A stretch of 64,000 nt of DNA from Escherichia phage 308Ecol101PP. The stretch is taken from the sequence record OR062945.1; one strand, given 5' to 3'. Within the stretch, counting starts at the first letter, position 1, and each line of letters begins with the position of its first letter. The position numbers were made by a program, and so were the translations under genes. This document shows, one piece after another, positions 35,078 to 49,812 of the stretch. The notes below the pieces were generated by a model. The model was given only the letters and a program-made list of their open reading frames with translations. It did not search any database and was not told the DNA's origin.

Positions 35078-35812
35078 ATGGAGCTAATCTTTTTAAGTGG
35101 CATCAAACGTAGTGGTAAAGACACTACTGCTGATTACATCAATTCAAACTTTAAATCCGTAAAATACCAATTAGCATATCCAATTAAAGACGCTCTAGCA
35201 ATAGCCTGGGGACGTAGGCATGCTGAAAATCCTGATGTATTCACAGAGTTGAAATACGAATACTTTGAAGGCATTGGATACGACCGTGAAACGCCATTAA
35301 ATCTCAATAAGTTGGATGTTATTGAATTATTGGAAGAAGCGCTAATTTATTTACAAAGTCAATATTTACCAATTAATAATGTTAAAGTATTATCATCGTT
35401 AGAAGGTGGATATTCATATCTAGATATTAAACCATACGAAGCCCTGCGTGAAGCTATAAATAATATCAACGACACATGGTCAATCCGCCGTCTTATGCAA
35501 GCCCTCGGTACGGATGTTGTCGTTAATTTATTTGACCGTATGTATTGGGTTAAACTTTTTGCATTAAATTATATGGATTATATTGGAAGTGATTTCGATT
35601 ACTATGTTGTAACCGATACACGCCAAGTCCATGAAATGGAAACCGCTAGAGCGATGGGTGCTACAGTTATTCATGTGGTTCGCTCTGGTACGGAATCCAC
35701 TGATAAACATATTACAGAAGCTGGGTTGCCTATTGAAGAAGGCGATTTAGTTATTACAAACGACGGCTCTTTAGAAGAGCTTTATTCTAAAATTGAAACA
35801 ATCTTAAGGTAA
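35078..35812 (+). CDS. 1: deoxynucleoside monophosphate kinase gp1
   Basis: 244 aa; MELIFLSGIKRSGKDTTADYI (P-loop) matches T4 gp1. Confidence 0.95.
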   Translation: MELIFLSGIKRSGKDTTADYINSNFKSVKYQLAYPIKDALAIAWGRRHAENPDVFTELKYEYFEGIGYDRETPLNLNKLDVIELLEEALIYLQSQYLPINNVKVLSSLEGGYSYLDIKPYEALREAINNINDTWSIRRLMQALGTDVVVNLFDRMYWVKLFALNYMDYIGSDFDYYVVTDTRQVHEMETARAMGATVIHVVRSGTESTDKHITEAGLPIEEGDLVITNDGSLEELYSKIETILR

Positions 35813-35816
35813 TAAA

Positions 35817-36502
<686 letters not shown>

Positions 36503-36514
36503 TTTAACAAAACA

Positions 36515-36550
36515 GTTTACATAAGGATGATGGCGTGTTACTATCATCCT
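36515..36550 (+). promoter_or_regulatory. early promoter with stem-loop (PeSL-type)
   Basis: GTTTACA, TGTTACTAT -10, inverted repeat AGGATGAT/ATCATCCT. Confidence 0.5.
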
Positions 36551-36578
36551 ATCAAATAAACGACCTCAAGGAAATAAA

Positions 36579-36866
36579 ATGAAAACCTATAAAGAATTTA
36601 TATCACCTGTTGCTAACGTTTCTACTCTGACCGAAGCAACCCTTACTTCCGAAGTTATTAAAGCAAATAAAGGACGTGAGGGTAAACCAATGATTAGTCT
36701 GGTTGACGGCGAAGAAGTAAAAGGTACTGTTTACTTAGGGGATGGATGGTCTGCTAAGAAAGATGGCGCTACTATTGTTATCTCTCCGGCTGAAGAGACT
36801 GCACTGTTTAAAGCTAAGCATATTTCTGTAGCTCAGCTTAAAATTATTGCAAAAACTCTTCTGTAA
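36579..36866 (+). CDS. internal-protein-like protein with capsid-targeting N-terminus
   Basis: 95 aa starting MKTYKEFI...; gp21-type L-x-E site at STLTE. Confidence 0.6.
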   Translation: MKTYKEFISPVANVSTLTEATLTSEVIKANKGREGKPMISLVDGEEVKGTVYLGDGWSAKKDGATIVISPAEETALFKAKHISVAQLKIIAKTLL

Positions 36867-36869
36867 GTA

Positions 36870-36906
36870 GTTTACATGCTGATAGGACTATGTTATAGTA
36901 GTCCTA
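36870..36906 (+). promoter_or_regulatory. early promoter with stem-loop (PeSL-type)
   Basis: GTTTACA, TGTTATAGT, inverted repeat ATAGGACTA/TAGTCCTAT. Confidence 0.5.
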
Positions 36907-36935
36907 TCAAATCAACAACCAAACGGAAAAAACAA

Positions 36936-37199
36936 ATGAAAACGTATAAAGAATTTATCGCTGAATCTCAATCTTCTACTCTGTCAGAGAACTACGAATC
37001 ATTCTCTTACAACAACGACCATGCAATGTTCTACGACCGAAACATCGGTACTTATGTCCATGTATGGGGTGTTAAAGATGGTAACGTAGTTGTTAAGAAA
37101 AACTCTAAAGAAGGCAATGGTCGTGGCCAGGTAAAAATTACCAGCAAGAAAGCTATCCAAGCTTACGTCGATTATGTTAAACGCGAAGCTGGTATTTAA
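36936..37199 (+). CDS. internal-protein-like protein with capsid-targeting N-terminus
   Basis: 87 aa starting MKTYKEFIAE. Confidence 0.6.
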   Translation: MKTYKEFIAESQSSTLSENYESFSYNNDHAMFYDRNIGTYVHVWGVKDGNVVVKKNSKEGNGRGQVKITSKKAIQAYVDYVKREAGI

Positions 37200-37201
37200 T
37201 A

Positions 37202-37239
37202 GTTTACATGATGATAGGACTATGTTATAGTAGTCCTAT
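37202..37239 (+). promoter_or_regulatory. early promoter with stem-loop (PeSL-type)
   Basis: Near-identical copy of the 36870 element. Confidence 0.5.
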
Positions 37240-37261
37240 CAAAACATGAGAGGATAATAAA

Positions 37262-37447
37262 ATGAAACGCGCTGAACTGATTCGTAATGTTGCTGTAGTA
37301 ATTGCTTCAATGGCTTTTAGTTTTTCGATGTTTGTAGGATTCATTTGTGGACTACTGACGACAACTGAAAATTCTATCTCATTGGTAGTAGCATTTCTAA
37401 TCGGCTTAATCGCTATCGTTATGGATAAAATTGCAAAAGGTGAGTAA
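37262..37447 (+). CDS. small hydrophobic membrane protein
   Basis: 61 aa, two hydrophobic segments. Confidence 0.5.
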   Translation: MKRAELIRNVAVVIASMAFSFSMFVGFICGLLTTTENSISLVVAFLIGLIAIVMDKIAKGE

Positions 37448-38697: not shown

Positions 38698-38772
38698 GGC
38701 CCTGTAGCTCAATGGGAGAGCTGTCAGCTCATAACTGATAGGTAGCTGGATCGAAACCAGCCAGGGTCACCA
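38698..38772 (+). tRNA. tRNA with CAT anticodon (Met or lysidine-type Ile), encoded CCA
   Basis: Hand-folded cloverleaf: acceptor GGCCCTG/CAGGGTC, D stem GCTC/GAGC, anticodon stem GTCAG/CTGAT with loop CTCATAA, T stem GCTGG/CCAGC. Confidence 0.85.
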
Positions 38773-38775
38773 ATT

Positions 38776-38852
<77 letters not shown>

Positions 38853-39548: not shown

Positions 39549-39556
39549 TATAAATA
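39549..39556 (+). promoter_or_regulatory. late promoter
   Basis: TATAAATA 36 nt upstream of ATG at 39592. Confidence 0.45.
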
Positions 39557-39591: not shown

Positions 39592-40218
39592 ATGTATACT
39601 TTTAATGAATTTTTAGCCGAAACGGAAGTAATCACCGAAGCCGGTGTACGTATGACAAAAGAGAAATGGCAAGCTGCTTACGATGCTATTTCTGGTACAA
39701 AAACTAGTACAGAGTTTTTCAAAAACGTTCAAGCCATGTATGGTATCGACACTTCCAGCCAAAAAGAATATTACAGAGCTTCTAAAGCATTCAAAGATAT
39801 TGTTAGTGGCGGTGTTTCTGCTAAATCGGGTTCGCCTAAAGTAAAACCTGCTCCTACCGTTCCTAAACCTGCGACCCCTAAAGCAATAGCAAAACCTGAG
39901 CCTAAGCCGGAAGTAAAAGCAACTCCTAAAGCTCCTGCTCTTAAGTTTGATACTTCTAGCCTGGAAAAAAAATATAAACAACTATCTTCGCTTGTTCGTG
40001 ATATTGAATCCGATACATCTTCACTCGTTCGTGAATTCAACAGTCTTCGTAATGGCCAACATATCAACAACCTTGATACCCCAGACCTTTATCGTCTTTA
40101 TTTGACTATTGAAGGTTTGAAGTACACTCAACCACTTCATGATGAGATTAAAGAAAAACTTCGTCAGGCAGGTCGTTTGGCTGCTGACGCTGCTCAGTAT
40201 GCAAAAACTCGTAAGTAA
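39592..40218 (+). CDS. internal-protein-like protein, Pro/Lys-rich central repeat
   Basis: 208 aa starting MYTFNEFLAE; KPAPTVPKPATPKAIAKPEPKPEVKATPKAP. Confidence 0.5.
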   Translation: MYTFNEFLAETEVITEAGVRMTKEKWQAAYDAISGTKTSTEFFKNVQAMYGIDTSSQKEYYRASKAFKDIVSGGVSAKSGSPKVKPAPTVPKPATPKAIAKPEPKPEVKATPKAPALKFDTSSLEKKYKQLSSLVRDIESDTSSLVREFNSLRNGQHINNLDTPDLYRLYLTIEGLKYTQPLHDEIKEKLRQAGRLAADAAQYAKTRK

Positions 40219-47741: not shown

Positions 47742-48230
47742 ATGAATATATTTGAAATGCTTCGTAATGACGAAGGTCTTAGACTGACTTTATACAAAGA
47801 CACTGAAGGCTTTTGGACAATTGGCATAGGTCATTTAGTAACAAAGAACCCGTCTTTAGCTGTAGCTAAAGCTGAACTTGACAGAATGATCGGGCGTAAA
47901 TGCAACGGTACAATTACCCTTGATGAGGCTGAAAAGTTATTTAATGAAGACGTTGATAAAGCTGTTCGCGGAATCTTGGGTAATGTTAAACTTAAACCGG
48001 TATATGATTCTTTAGATGCGGTTCGTCGATGTGCATTGGTCAATATGGTCTTCCAAATGGGTGTAGCAGGCGTCGCTGGTTTTACTAATTCTCTTCGTAT
48101 GCTTCAACAGAAACGTTGGGATGAAGCGGCAGTAAATCTAGCACAATCTAAATGGTATCGTCAGACACCTAATCGCGCGAAACGCGTAATCTCAACATTT
48201 AAAACAGGAACTTGGAAAGCGTATATATGA
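47742..48230 (+). CDS. e: lysozyme (endolysin)
   Basis: 162 aa [31 protein letters not shown]..., near-identical to T4 lysozyme; GGGAGG RBS. Confidence 0.96.
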
Positions 48231-48508
48231 AAACATATAGTGAATTTTTATCAGAATCTATTCTTAACGAAGCTACTGACACATTTGCAACTAAGCTAGG
48301 TGCAGCTTTGGTTGAAGCTGAAAGTCTATTAGCACGTATTTCTGAACTTGCTAGTAAGATAGATACTCGCAAATTTGAGCGCACCAGTGATATCGTTAAG
48401 CTTGAAGCCTTGTTGCGTATGTGCGATAAACCGGAAGAAATCGCTAAGAACGGCTCGCTGATGAAACAACGTCTTGAAAAATATATTTCAGGCGCTTCAG
48501 AAAAATAG
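48227..48508 (+). CDS. internal-protein-like protein with capsid-targeting N-terminus
   Basis: 93 aa starting [10 protein letters not shown]; ATGA overlap with lysozyme stop. Confidence 0.55.
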
Positions 48509-48509
48509 T

Positions 48510-48545
48510 GTTTACTTCCTCCAAGGGTTTTGATACTATACATTC
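48510..48545 (+). promoter_or_regulatory. early promoter for denV
   Basis: GTTTACTTCCTCC...TGATACTATA. Confidence 0.5.
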
Positions 48546-48566
48546 ATCAACTACTTGGAGGAAATT

Positions 48567-48980
48567 ATGACTCGTATCAATTTAACACTTGTTTCTGAAC
48601 TGACCGACCAACATCTTATGGCTGAGTATCGTGAATTACCACGCGTATTTGGTGCAGTCCGTAAACATGTTCAAAACGGTAAACGTGTAAAGGATTTTAA
48701 AATCTCTCCAACATTTATCTTAGGCACAGGTCACGTAACATTCTTTTACGACAAACTCGAATTTTTACGTTTACGTCAAATCGAGCTAATCGCCGAATGC
48801 TTGAAACGTGGTTTCAAAATCAAGGACACATCTGTCCAAGATATTTCCGACATCCCTGCCGAATTTCGTAATAATTATGTCCCGTCCGAAGCGTCCATTG
48901 CGATAAGTCAAGCACGCTTAGATGAAAAAATTGCTCAGCGCCCGACTTGGTACAAATACTATGGTAAATCAATTTACTAA
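48567..48980 (+). CDS. denV: endonuclease V (pyrimidine dimer DNA glycosylase)
   Basis: 137 aa [31 protein letters not shown]..., near-identical to T4 endo V. Confidence 0.95.
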
Positions 48981-48986
48981 GGAAAA

Positions 48987-49247
48987 ATGAAAATGTATCA
49001 AGAATTTATCGCTGAAGCAGATGCCAAAGGTCCTAAATTTAAAGTTAAAGCTTTCATTGGTGATGCGGAAGACTTTGGCTCATTAAAACGTAATGGGTAT
49101 TCTTTCTTAGGTGGCGATGGTAAAGAAATCAACACCTATGCAAAACGTAGTGAAATTGCTTATGTTGTAGCAAGCCCTAAAGTAGATGTTGACGATATTG
49201 GATACGATTTTAACAACTTTGGAATTATTTCTGGCGGTAAAGCTTAA
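48987..49247 (+). CDS. internal-protein-like protein with capsid-targeting N-terminus
   Basis: 86 aa starting MKMYQEFIAE. Confidence 0.6.
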   Translation: MKMYQEFIAEADAKGPKFKVKAFIGDAEDFGSLKRNGYSFLGGDGKEINTYAKRSEIAYVVASPKVDVDDIGYDFNNFGIISGGKA

Positions 49248-49250
49248 ATT

Positions 49251-49280
49251 GTTTACGCTTAAGTATTAATATGGTATAAT
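49251..49280 (+). promoter_or_regulatory. early promoter
   Basis: GTTTAC, 18-nt spacer, TATAAT. Confidence 0.5.
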
Positions 49281-49310
49281 TACTCTATCAAAACAAATAA
49301 GGAAACAAAA

Positions 49311-49640
49311 ATGAAAACGTATCAAGAGTTTATCACTGAAGTTACATTATCTGCGGAACAGAAAGCTGCTATCGAAGAAGGTAAAAATCCCAAAGTAACA
49401 TATAAAGTAAATGGTAAAGGCGTTTTTGATGGCTTGGTTCAAGACCCTGAATTGAAAAAAGCTCTTTCTAAAACTAATGCGTACTTTGCTCCTAAATTTA
49501 ACGCAGCCGGTGTACTTATTGGATTGGATGTATTCAACTCTAAAGGTGTTCTATCTAATGCCTTTGGTTATGCCGCTAACAAAATTACCAAAGCCGAATG
49601 GGAATCCAATACCAAACAAGCTCAAAAGCCTAGAGTATAA
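49311..49640 (+). CDS. internal-protein-like protein with capsid-targeting N-terminus
   Basis: 109 aa starting MKTYQEFITE. Confidence 0.6.
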   Translation: MKTYQEFITEVTLSAEQKAAIEEGKNPKVTYKVNGKGVFDGLVQDPELKKALSKTNAYFAPKFNAAGVLIGLDVFNSKGVLSNAFGYAANKITKAEWESNTKQAQKPRV

Positions 49641-49812
49641 TTCTTGCCTAATAAAGGGAAACGCAACCTCTCCTTATGAACGTCGAGTCCTCTAAGTGAT
49701 GTACCTTTTCCAACCTGTAATAAGGTCGAGCGCAATGCGGTAATGGGTTTACATAGCGAGTCGAAGGACCTAACATGTGCCACGGAACGGCCCAAACCTT
49801 AAGAGAAATAAT

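What the first reader, a model, noticed from the sequence alone, without database searches (positions are those of the whole stretch)
36579..37199. Two unrelated internal-protein-like genes at the ipI-type locus right after acb1 (57B)
Both ORFs open with MKTYKEFI(A/S)..E, matching the T4 internal-protein capsid-targeting sequence (MKTYQEFIAE, removed by gp21 protease after Glu in L/I-x-E). Their bodies share nothing with each other. In T4 such proteins are packaged in the head and injected with the DNA, and IPI* blocks the GmrSD restriction enzyme. These are therefore candidate injected counter-defence effectors with unknown targets, next to the anti-CBASS nuclease acb1.
Basis: partly seen in the sequence, partly recalled or inferred. 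Interest (0 to 1): 0.75.

Follow-up and report, generated by a model that had tools for sequence, protein, structure and literature searches.

The report
IPI plus an unnamed injected-protein cassette
The first gene is the well-known T4 restriction-enzyme inhibitor IPI, and the second is an unannotated member of the same known class of phage proteins that are packed in the head and injected with the DNA; it was built by joining the head-targeting leader to a small protein that related phages make without that leader.

Summary
The window is a Mosigvirus (RB69/JS09-like T-even phage). Two ORFs follow 57B/Acb1, at 36579-36866 and 36936-37199, and they resemble each other only in their first 18-19 residues, which form an internal-protein leader.

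- **ORF1 is IPI itself.** It matches Pfam IPI_T4 at E 1e-50, and residues 20-95 are 72/76 identical to the solved IPI* structure 2JUB. Its target, GmrSD, is already known.
- **ORF2 (87 aa) is a new, unnamed Ip cassette.** All 35 phage-record matches are annotated only as hypothetical protein or left unannotated. It has no Pfam family.
  - It carries the leader MKTYKEFIAE plus two gp21-type sites, IAE at 8-10 and LSE at 16-18.
  - It is under purifying selection.
  - Its body folds confidently (pLDDT 88.5) as a five-stranded sheet plus a helix, with no informative structural relative.
  - The body belongs to a family of eight protein clusters, all from T4-like phages. Every other member lacks the leader and sits in a different variable region.

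Both cassettes lie between three promoter/stem-loop (PeSL) repeats. Other Mosigviruses carry IPI alone, ORF2 alone, Ip7, or another Ip in these slots. This is the ipI-locus polymorphism described in 1994. ORF2's target is unknown, so it counts as a new member of a known kind and is of modest interest.

The parts
35455..35462 (+). TATAAATA, a T4 late-promoter-like box inside gene 1. It is the nearest upstream late signal that could drive late transcription through 57A, 57B, ipI and ORF2.
   Evidence: T4 has the same box at a similar depth in its gene 1: 362 nt in T4 against 377 nt here. Its function is inferred.
36047..36502 (+). 57B / Acb1 (151 aa), the conserved left border of the variable slot
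   Evidence: Pfam Acb1 PF23474, E 1.3e-58; same position as T4 57B
36513..36559 (+). PeSL 1: early promoter TTTACA-N17-TACTAT overlapping a 10-bp stem-loop
   Evidence: Repeat family D1; promoter scan; fold -13.2 kcal/mol, z -3.2
36579..36866 (+). ipI: IPI precursor, 95 aa. The leader is aa 1-19 (36579-36635), ending in LTE. Mature IPI* is aa 20-95.
   Evidence: Pfam IPI_T4 E 1.3e-50 over aa 20-95; 72/76 identical to PDB 2JUB, whose chain starts at ATLTSE; phrog_4363 internal virion protein
36868..36914 (+). PeSL 2: TTTACA-N17-TATAGT overlapping a 12-bp stem-loop
   Evidence: fold -17.7 kcal/mol, z -5.2
36936..37199 (+). ORF2: unnamed Ip cassette, 87 aa. The leader is aa 1-18 (36936-36989), with IAE at 8-10 and LSE at 16-18. 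The body is aa 19-87 (7.9 kDa, pI 9.4).
   Evidence: Leader similarity to IPI; cleavage motifs and purifying selection; body family of 8 clusters, the others leaderless; AF2 pLDDT 88.5
37200..37246 (+). PeSL 3, 96% identical to PeSL 2, upstream of trna.4
   Evidence: fold -17.5 kcal/mol, z -4.8
37262..37447 (+). trna.4 homologue (61 aa, hydrophobic), the conserved right border of the variable slot; no leader
   Evidence: phrog_1692; noted as RB69 trna.4-like in Shf125875; same position in T4

Best explanation
This is the polymorphic ipI locus of a Mosigvirus, holding two independent internal-protein cassettes. Each cassette has its own early promoter/stem-loop (PeSL), a ribosome-binding site, about 30 nt encoding the capsid-targeting leader M-K-T-Y-K-E-F-I, and then an unrelated body.

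Cassette 1 is IPI. Its 19-residue leader takes it into the prohead core. The head protease gp21 cuts after LTE-19. The 76-residue IPI* is then ejected with the DNA and blocks a GmrSD-type modification-dependent nuclease.

Cassette 2 (ORF2) is an unnamed Ip. An IPI-type 18-residue leader has been joined to a small sheet-plus-helix domain that other T4-like phages express as an ordinary early protein without a leader. I infer that ORF2 is packaged the same way and trimmed after E10 and/or E18 to a basic protein of about 7.9 kDa, close in size and charge to IPI*. It would then be delivered with the DNA, so that it acts before any phage gene is expressed.

Its most likely job is to neutralise a host defence that attacks incoming modified DNA, since all three T4 Ips do that. 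The target itself is not identified.

Shown here: gene identity, the leader and its cleavage motifs, modular architecture, cassette exchange between phages, purifying selection, and the fold.

Inferred: packaging, processing, injection and the anti-defence role of ORF2.
For: - **Phage identity.** The closest record is Mosigvirus vB_EcoM-ZQ3, at 99.7% identity.
- **ORF1 is IPI.**
- **ORF2 leader.** It is homologous to the IPI leader over 18-19 residues.
- **Shared cassette head.** Ten cassette upstream regions from six phages share the PeSL, the RBS and the first ~30 coding nt, then diverge.
- **Cassette arrangements in other Mosigviruses.** IPI+ORF2, IPI+Ip7, IPI alone, ORF2 alone, ORF2 plus a fourth family, and Ip7-like plus that family in either order.
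- **Crossover inside the leader.** In ST0, ORF2 sits directly behind the IPI-type upstream region and has IPI's third codon (ACC), so IPI was lost by a crossover inside the leader codons.
- **Selection.** In six ORF2 alleles, 17 variable codons are synonymous-only and 6 change the amino acid. Four of those six lie in the linker at aa 12-17, and both L/I-x-E sites are kept in every allele.
- **Body family.** There are eight clusters among 5.8 billion proteins. The others are leaderless and sit after gene 52, after a dexA-like gene, or near cef/gene 39 in T4-like phages.
- **Fold.** The AF2 model has pLDDT 88.5 and pTM 0.78. Independent BFVD models of the family superpose at TM 0.90-0.98.
- **Late promoter.** A late-promoter box inside gene 1 is conserved with T4.
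- **Literature.** The leader suffices to package foreign proteins, and Ips are described as a diverse set of defence proteins sharing only the leader (PMC3012670). T4 Ip1, Ip2 and Ip3 each inhibit a distinct GmrSD (PMC12373910).
Against: - There are no virion proteomics or processing data for ORF2 in anything I could search.
- ORF2 has no late promoter of its own, and each PeSL stem-loop could reduce read-through from upstream.
- Its RBS (AACGGAAAAAACAAATG) is weaker than IPI's.
- All relatives of the body work without a leader, so the body does not need injection to function.
- Ten other ip genes tested against a panel of GmrSD variants gave no new inhibitory pair (PMC12373910).
- NicPhage carries IPI plus an identical ORF2 and is still sensitive to the GmrSD-family enzyme BrxU (PMC13390438).
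Confidence: 0.7

Rival explanations
1. ORF2 is an ordinary early cytoplasmic accessory protein. Its leader is a recombination scar, kept only because the leader codons are part of the sequence that shuffles cassettes in and out of this locus. It is not packaged in useful amounts.
For: All seven other clusters of the body family lack the leader and sit behind early-type promoters in other variable regions. ORF2 has its own early promoter and no late promoter of its own. The leader codons demonstrably serve as a crossover site.
Against: The leader and both protease motifs are intact in all six alleles examined, despite several synonymous and linker changes. The leader alone is sufficient to load foreign proteins into T4 heads (PMC3012670). 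A conserved late-promoter box lies upstream in gene 1, as in T4, where IPI is packaged from the same arrangement.
Confidence: 0.15
2. ORF2 is packaged but has no specific target. It would be a generic basic filler protein that accompanies the condensed DNA.
For: The mature form is small and basic (7.9 kDa, pI 9.4), like IPI* (pI 9.0). No enzyme or inhibitor family is recognised.
Against: The slot is dispensable and variable between near-identical phages, which points to host-dependent selection rather than a structural need. The body is a conserved, well-folded domain under purifying selection. It is also used without packaging by other phages. All three T4 Ips turned out to have specific targets.
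Confidence: 0.1
3. ORF2 is not a real gene.
For: It is short, is called hypothetical everywhere, and has a weak RBS.
Against: It is intact in 28 phage records at 95-100% identity. Variable codons split 17 synonymous-only to 6 amino-acid-changing. There are distant homologues at 30-63% identity, and the predicted fold is confident.
Confidence: 0.02

Closest known systems
T4 internal protein I (IPI / IPI*, PDB 2JUB, Pfam PF11634), inhibitor of the CT596 GmrS/GmrD type IV restriction enzyme
   Same: ORF1 is its orthologue. It has the same length (95 aa), the same 19-residue leader ending in L/I-T-E before ATLTSE, 72/76 identity in the mature part, and the same position between 57B and trna.4.
   Different: There are four substitutions in the mature part. 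The host phage has arabinosylated rather than glucosylated cytosines (PMC13390438), so the enzyme it meets in nature may differ. ORF2 shares only the leader with IPI.
The variable Ip cassettes of the ipI locus in T-even phages (Repoila et al. 1994, e.g. RB15 Ip7; cited in PMC12373910 and PMC3012670)
   Same: ORF2 has the same leader, the same locus, the same cassette behaviour and a similar size. Ip7 (phrog_2667) and a fourth family (phrog_7673) occupy the same slots in sister phages.
   Different: The ORF2 body is unrelated to IPI, Ip7 and the fourth family. No record or database names it as an internal protein, whereas Ip7 and the fourth family do carry that name. Its body has leaderless relatives at other loci.
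PeSL (promoter-early stem-loop) mobile regulatory cassettes of T4-type phages (PMC2839356, PMC4122927)
   Same: The three elements flanking the cassettes match the published T4/PST form, TTTACW-N17-TAYWAT with an overlapping stem-loop. They sit in a hyperplastic region next to ORFs that differ between close relatives.
   Different: Nothing substantive. At this locus the conserved recombination module extends beyond the PeSL into the first ~30 nt of coding sequence, the leader codons.
T4 Ip2 and Ip3 (inhibitors of GmrSD-ECOR21 and GmrSD-ECOR17; PMC12373910)
   Same: They are leader-bearing, injected and non-essential. They are the functional precedent for guessing ORF2's role.
   Different: Neither appears among ORF2's eight-cluster family. 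They lie at a different locus; the window's own ipII/ipIII-type slot is at about 48200-49650.
AcrIF13 (PDB 7FI4)
   Different: Identity is only 8%. Foldseek finds no PDB match (best E 1.5). Polo-box and LolA domains score nearly as well, so this is a common sheet-plus-helix topology rather than evidence of kinship.

Membership tests
IPI (Pfam PF11634 IPI_T4), for ORF1 | Sequence match above the curated threshold over the mature domain | tested here: met
   169.7 bits against a cut-off of 25, aa 20-95 covering the whole 76-position profile; 72/76 identical to 2JUB
IPI (Pfam PF11634 IPI_T4), for ORF1 | Leader of about 19 residues ending in an L/I-x-E protease site directly before the mature N-terminus | tested here: met
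   MKTYKEFISPVANVSTLTE|ATLTSE; the solved chain starts at ATLTSE; the T4 leader is MKTFKEFTSTTTPVSTITE
IPI (Pfam PF11634 IPI_T4), for ORF1 | Inhibits a GmrSD-type nuclease | not testable with these tools
   Inferred from 95% identity to the characterised protein
T-even internal proteins (Ip) carrying the capsid-targeting leader, for ORF2 | N-terminal M-K-T-[YF]-x-E-F-[IL] leader | tested here: met
   MKTYKEFIAE; the motif occurs 6 times in the window against 0.012-0.02 expected, always at an ORF start
T-even internal proteins (Ip) carrying the capsid-targeting leader, for ORF2 | gp21-type L/I-x-E site just after the leader | tested here: met
   IAE at 8-10 and LSE/LTE at 16-18, none in the body, kept in six alleles
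T-even internal proteins (Ip) carrying the capsid-targeting leader, for ORF2 | Located in a variable Ip slot and exchangeable with other Ip cassettes | tested here: met
   Seven arrangements seen in Mosigviruses
T-even internal proteins (Ip) carrying the capsid-targeting leader, for ORF2 | Made when proheads assemble (late transcription) | tested here: inconclusive
   No late box of its own. The nearest + strand TATAAATA is at 35455 in gene 1, conserved with T4. Read-through past two stem-loops is assumed.
T-even internal proteins (Ip) carrying the capsid-targeting leader, for ORF2 | Present in virions in processed form and ejected with the DNA | not testable with these tools
   No proteomic data found
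GmrSD inhibitors (Ip1/Ip2/Ip3), for ORF2 | Homology to a characterised inhibitor | tested here: not met
   Only the leader aligns with IPI. The whole family is eight unnamed clusters. No PDB sequence hit.
GmrSD inhibitors (Ip1/Ip2/Ip3), for ORF2 | Protects the phage from a type IV restriction enzyme | not testable with these tools
   The only indirect datum is that NicPhage, with an identical ORF2, is sensitive to BrxU
PeSL elements | TTTACW-N17-TAYWAT promoter with an overlapping stem-loop, repeated in hyperplastic regions | tested here: met
   11 copies in the window against 0.09 expected; published consensus from PMC4122927

The most novel reading that the evidence does not exclude
ORF2 would be an injected inhibitor of a host defence other than the GmrSD enzymes tested so far. 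Its family would exist in two delivery modes: pre-loaded in the capsid in Mosigviruses, and expressed after entry in Dhakaviruses and other T4-like phages. That would give a natural experiment on whether the timing of delivery decides which defences a counter-defence protein can beat. It would also show that the ipI slot can turn any small early protein into an injected one.
Probability: 0.2. Interest if true: 0.55.

Novelty: new member of a known kind. Interest (0 to 1): 0.3.

Why it matters
IPI here adds nothing new.

ORF2 adds one more Ip to a list of more than ten, and only the three T4 Ips on that list have known targets. It is present in about 28 sequenced coliphages, several of them therapy or typing phages, and is annotated as hypothetical in all of them.

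The useful point is the pairing of a leader-bearing form with leaderless relatives of the same domain. This shows directly how the locus recruits cargo. It also gives a clean comparison for testing what injection adds.

If its target were found, it would extend the map of defences that T-even phages disarm at the moment of DNA entry. That bears on host-range prediction.

Tried and rejected
- **First AF2 run.** Full-length ORF2 with a 3-sequence alignment gave pLDDT 45.8, which is unusable. It was replaced by the 9-sequence run.
- **Structure libraries.** The AlphaFold-database library afdb50 was not available. Foldseek against the PDB found nothing. BFVD returned only the family itself.
- **Family databases.** PADLOC, NCBIfam and Pfam found nothing for ORF2. 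The PDB sequence search gave only a chance ankyrin-repeat match at E 0.3.
- **False positive.** In the exhaustive profile search, a 3562-aa protein (P0016) matched through a repeated TDGNGRAT motif of an adhesin-like repeat. I discarded it.
- **Unavailable paper.** Repoila et al. 1994 is not held. I therefore could not compare ORF2 with each named Ip directly. I relied on the absence of any Ip name in its family, with a control showing that Ip7 and the fourth family do carry such names.
- **Literature searches.** Text searches for the ORF2 sequence, and in the supplements of PMC12373910, found nothing.
- **RNA genes.** Rfam found only the two tRNAs downstream, so no RNA gene explains the region.
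- **Longer ORF2.** I rejected the version starting at 36876. That start lies inside the promoter, and its extra residues are the translated PeSL.

Full report
**What is there**

The window comes from a Mosigvirus, an RB69/JS09-like T-even phage. The 760 bases around the finding are 99.7% identical to Escherichia phage vB_EcoM-ZQ3, and 299 phage records match part of the stretch.

The gene order is 4, 2, 3, 1, 57A, 57B, then the two ORFs, then trna.4, trna.3, trna.2 and tRNA genes. This is the T4 order. The gene before the finding is 57B/Acb1 (Pfam PF23474, E 1.3e-58).

ORF1 is 36579-36866 (95 aa). ORF2 as listed mechanically starts at 36876, but the real start is 36936 (87 aa, ending at 37199). 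That start is the one annotated in most related records, and the earlier ATG lies inside the promoter hexamers at 36871-36899.

BLASTP aligns only residues 1-19 of ORF1 with 1-18 of ORF2: MKTYKEFISPVANVSTLTE against MKTYKEFIAE-SQSSTLSE. Nothing else aligns.

A loose pattern for the leader occurs six times in the six-frame translation of the window, each time at the start of an ORF. The expected number is 0.012-0.02.

**ORF1 is IPI itself**

- It matches Pfam IPI_T4 at E 1.3e-50 over residues 20-95.
- It matches phrog_4363, internal virion protein.
- Residues 20-95 are 72/76 identical to the solved IPI* chain 2JUB, which begins at ATLTSE.
- Its only L/I-x-E site is LTE at 17-19, exactly before that residue.
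- T4's own IPI leader reads MKTFKEFTSTTTPVSTITE.

ORF1 is therefore not a protein with an unknown target. It is the orthologue of the known inhibitor of the CT596 GmrSD enzyme (PMC3012670; PMC12373910).

**ORF2 is a real but unnamed gene**

- *Annotation.* A protein-level search of 50,697 phage records finds it in 35 records. Of these, 28 are full length at 95-100% identity, all in Mosigvirus-type phages. Every match is annotated only as hypothetical protein or is unannotated.
- *Databases.* No member of its 90% cluster carries a name. Pfam, NCBIfam, PADLOC and PDB sequence searches give nothing.
- *PHROGs.* It falls in phrog_13302 (unknown function), whose profile starts only at ORF2 residue 16, after the leader.
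- *Control.* The other cassette families at this locus do carry the name. Ip7 is phrog_2667 and a fourth family is phrog_7673, both "internal head protein", and several GenBank and UniProt entries say the same.
- *Selection.* Across six alleles, 17 variable codons are synonymous-only and 6 change the amino acid. Four of those six lie in the linker at residues 12-17 and only two lie in the 69-residue body.
- *Cleavage motifs.* IAE at 8-10 and L-(S/T)-E at 16-18 are kept in every allele.
- *Predicted mature form.* After cutting at E18 the protein would be 69 aa, 7.9 kDa, pI 9.4. IPI* is 76 aa, 8.0 kDa, pI 9.0.

**The body has leaderless relatives**

The word-indexed search of 5.8 billion proteins found only two clusters. 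One is the Mosigvirus form. The other is a 73-aa Dhakavirus protein, 63% identical over residues 15-82, that starts MKTLNINSFFY with no leader.

In phage AnYang that Dhakavirus gene lies after gene 52 (topoisomerase II medium subunit), between two promoter/stem-loop elements. No in-frame upstream leader is present.

An exhaustive profile search of 1.84 billion representatives, followed by a second profile search, raised the family to eight clusters. The additions are a 47-aa fragment in Pectobacterium phage PM2 and five proteins from metagenome (Logan) assemblies. On the two contigs I examined:

- one gene lies after a dexA-like exonuclease, downstream of uvsX and gene 41 homologues;
- the other lies upstream of cef and a gene 39-type topoisomerase subunit.

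None of these proteins has the leader. The conserved core reads H-x-M-M/F-F/Y-D ... Y-V/I-H-V/I-W-G ... V-V-K-x-N ... K-K.

ORF2 is therefore a fusion of an IPI-type leader to a domain that other T4-like phages use as an ordinary early protein.

**Structure**

With three sequences the model was poor (pLDDT 45.8). With the nine-sequence alignment the body folds confidently (pLDDT 88.5, pTM 0.78). It has five strands followed by a C-terminal helix.

Independent BFVD models of the Mosigvirus and Dhakavirus proteins superpose on it at TM 0.98 and 0.90. No other viral protein matches.

**Architecture of the locus**

Three copies of a 47-nt element lie at 36513-36559, 36868-36914 and 37200-37246. 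The last two are 96% identical.

Each element is an early-type promoter (TTTACA-N17-TATAGT or TACTAT) overlapping a 10-12-bp stem-loop of -13 to -18 kcal/mol, with z-scores of -3.2 to -5.2. This fits the published PeSL of the T4/PST group, TTTACW-N17-TAYWAT plus a stem-loop (PMC4122927). Eleven such elements occur in the window against 0.09 expected.

An alignment of ten cassette upstream regions from six phages shows a shared PeSL, RBS and about 30 nt of leader codons. After that the sequences diverge completely.

Sister Mosigviruses carry these arrangements in the same place:

| Arrangement | Example phages |
|---|---|
| IPI + ORF2 | this window, ZQ3, G53 |
| IPI + Ip7 | Shf125875, LF82 series |
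| IPI alone | JS09 |
| ORF2 alone | ST0, DCP548 |
| ORF2 + fourth family | AV113 |
| Ip7-like + fourth family | F27, PTE-Eco05 |
| Fourth family + Ip7 | SQ17 |

In ST0, ORF2 follows the IPI-type upstream region and has IPI's third codon. IPI was therefore lost by a crossover inside the leader codons. This is the polymorphism attributed to Repoila et al. 1994 in the papers I could read.

**How it most likely works**

The leader alone is enough to load foreign proteins into T4 heads (PMC3012670). ORF2 has the leader and two protease motifs, so I infer packaging, trimming and ejection with the DNA.

Late synthesis is plausible but not shown. ORF2 has no late box of its own. A TATAAATA lies in gene 1 at 35455, and T4 has one at a similar depth in its gene 1. 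T4 IPI is packaged from that same layout.

For function, all three T4 Ips inhibit distinct GmrSD enzymes. However, ten further ip genes tested against a GmrSD panel gave no new inhibitory pair (PMC12373910). NicPhage carries IPI and an identical ORF2 and is still sensitive to BrxU (PMC13390438).

My confidence estimates are:

- about 0.7 that ORF2 is a packaged, processed, injected protein;
- about 0.3 that its target is a modification-dependent nuclease.

**Verdict**

The finding is real, and its general interpretation is the textbook one for this locus.

One of the two genes is already fully known. The other is a new, unannotated member of a known class. Its instructive feature is that the cargo domain also exists without the leader elsewhere.

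Noticed in passing
window 39592-40218 (+), with TATAAATA at 39549-39556: A 208-aa ORF opens with a leader-like MYTFNEFLAE followed by ITE at 14-16. A late-promoter box sits 43 nt upstream. The centre of the protein is Pro/Lys/Ala-rich. It is called hypothetical in every source (phrog_2280, unknown function). It may be a larger, unrecognised packaged protein.
   Followed up: partly
window 48227-48508, 48987-49247, 49311-49640 (+): Three more leader-bearing ORFs ([30 protein letters not shown]) surround the endonuclease V-like gene at 48555-48980, after the lysozyme gene. This is the ipII/ipIII-type locus. Two fall in PHROGs named internal head protein. The third (49311) is phrog_3966, unknown function, and has a PeSL at 49251-49291. 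The window therefore encodes six leader-bearing proteins.
   Followed up: partly
window 3435, 40831, 43925, 45216, 45484, 49251, 56097, 62903 (+): Eight further PeSL-like promoter/stem-loop elements lie outside the finding, all on the + strand. Including the three at the finding, there are 11 in the window against 0.09 expected by chance.
   Followed up: partly
L003 (phage AnYang) 2495-2716; L009 5001-5219; L010 824-1105: Leaderless relatives of the ORF2 body sit in three different variable regions of T4-like genomes: after gene 52, after a dexA-like gene, and upstream of cef/gene 39. The small domain has moved around independently of the ipI locus.
   Followed up: yes
window 36929-36935 compared with L006 (phage F27) upstream of its first cassette: ORF2 and the unrelated Ip7-like cassette of F27 share the same unusual, weak-looking translation start region, AAACGGAAAAAACAAATG. 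Other cassettes have TAGGAAAATAAAATG. The 5' untranslated module is thus exchanged independently of the body.
   Followed up: no
window 38698-38852 (+): Only two tRNA genes (Met-CAT and Arg-TCT) lie downstream of trna.2. T4 has eight tRNAs plus two small RNAs and segB at the corresponding place.
   Followed up: no
cluster 1: The 90% cluster that holds Ip7 of Shf125875 also lists many 61-68-aa trna.4 proteins. This looks like a clustering artefact, perhaps from fused gene calls across the Ip7/trna.4 junction, and not a biological relationship.
   Followed up: no
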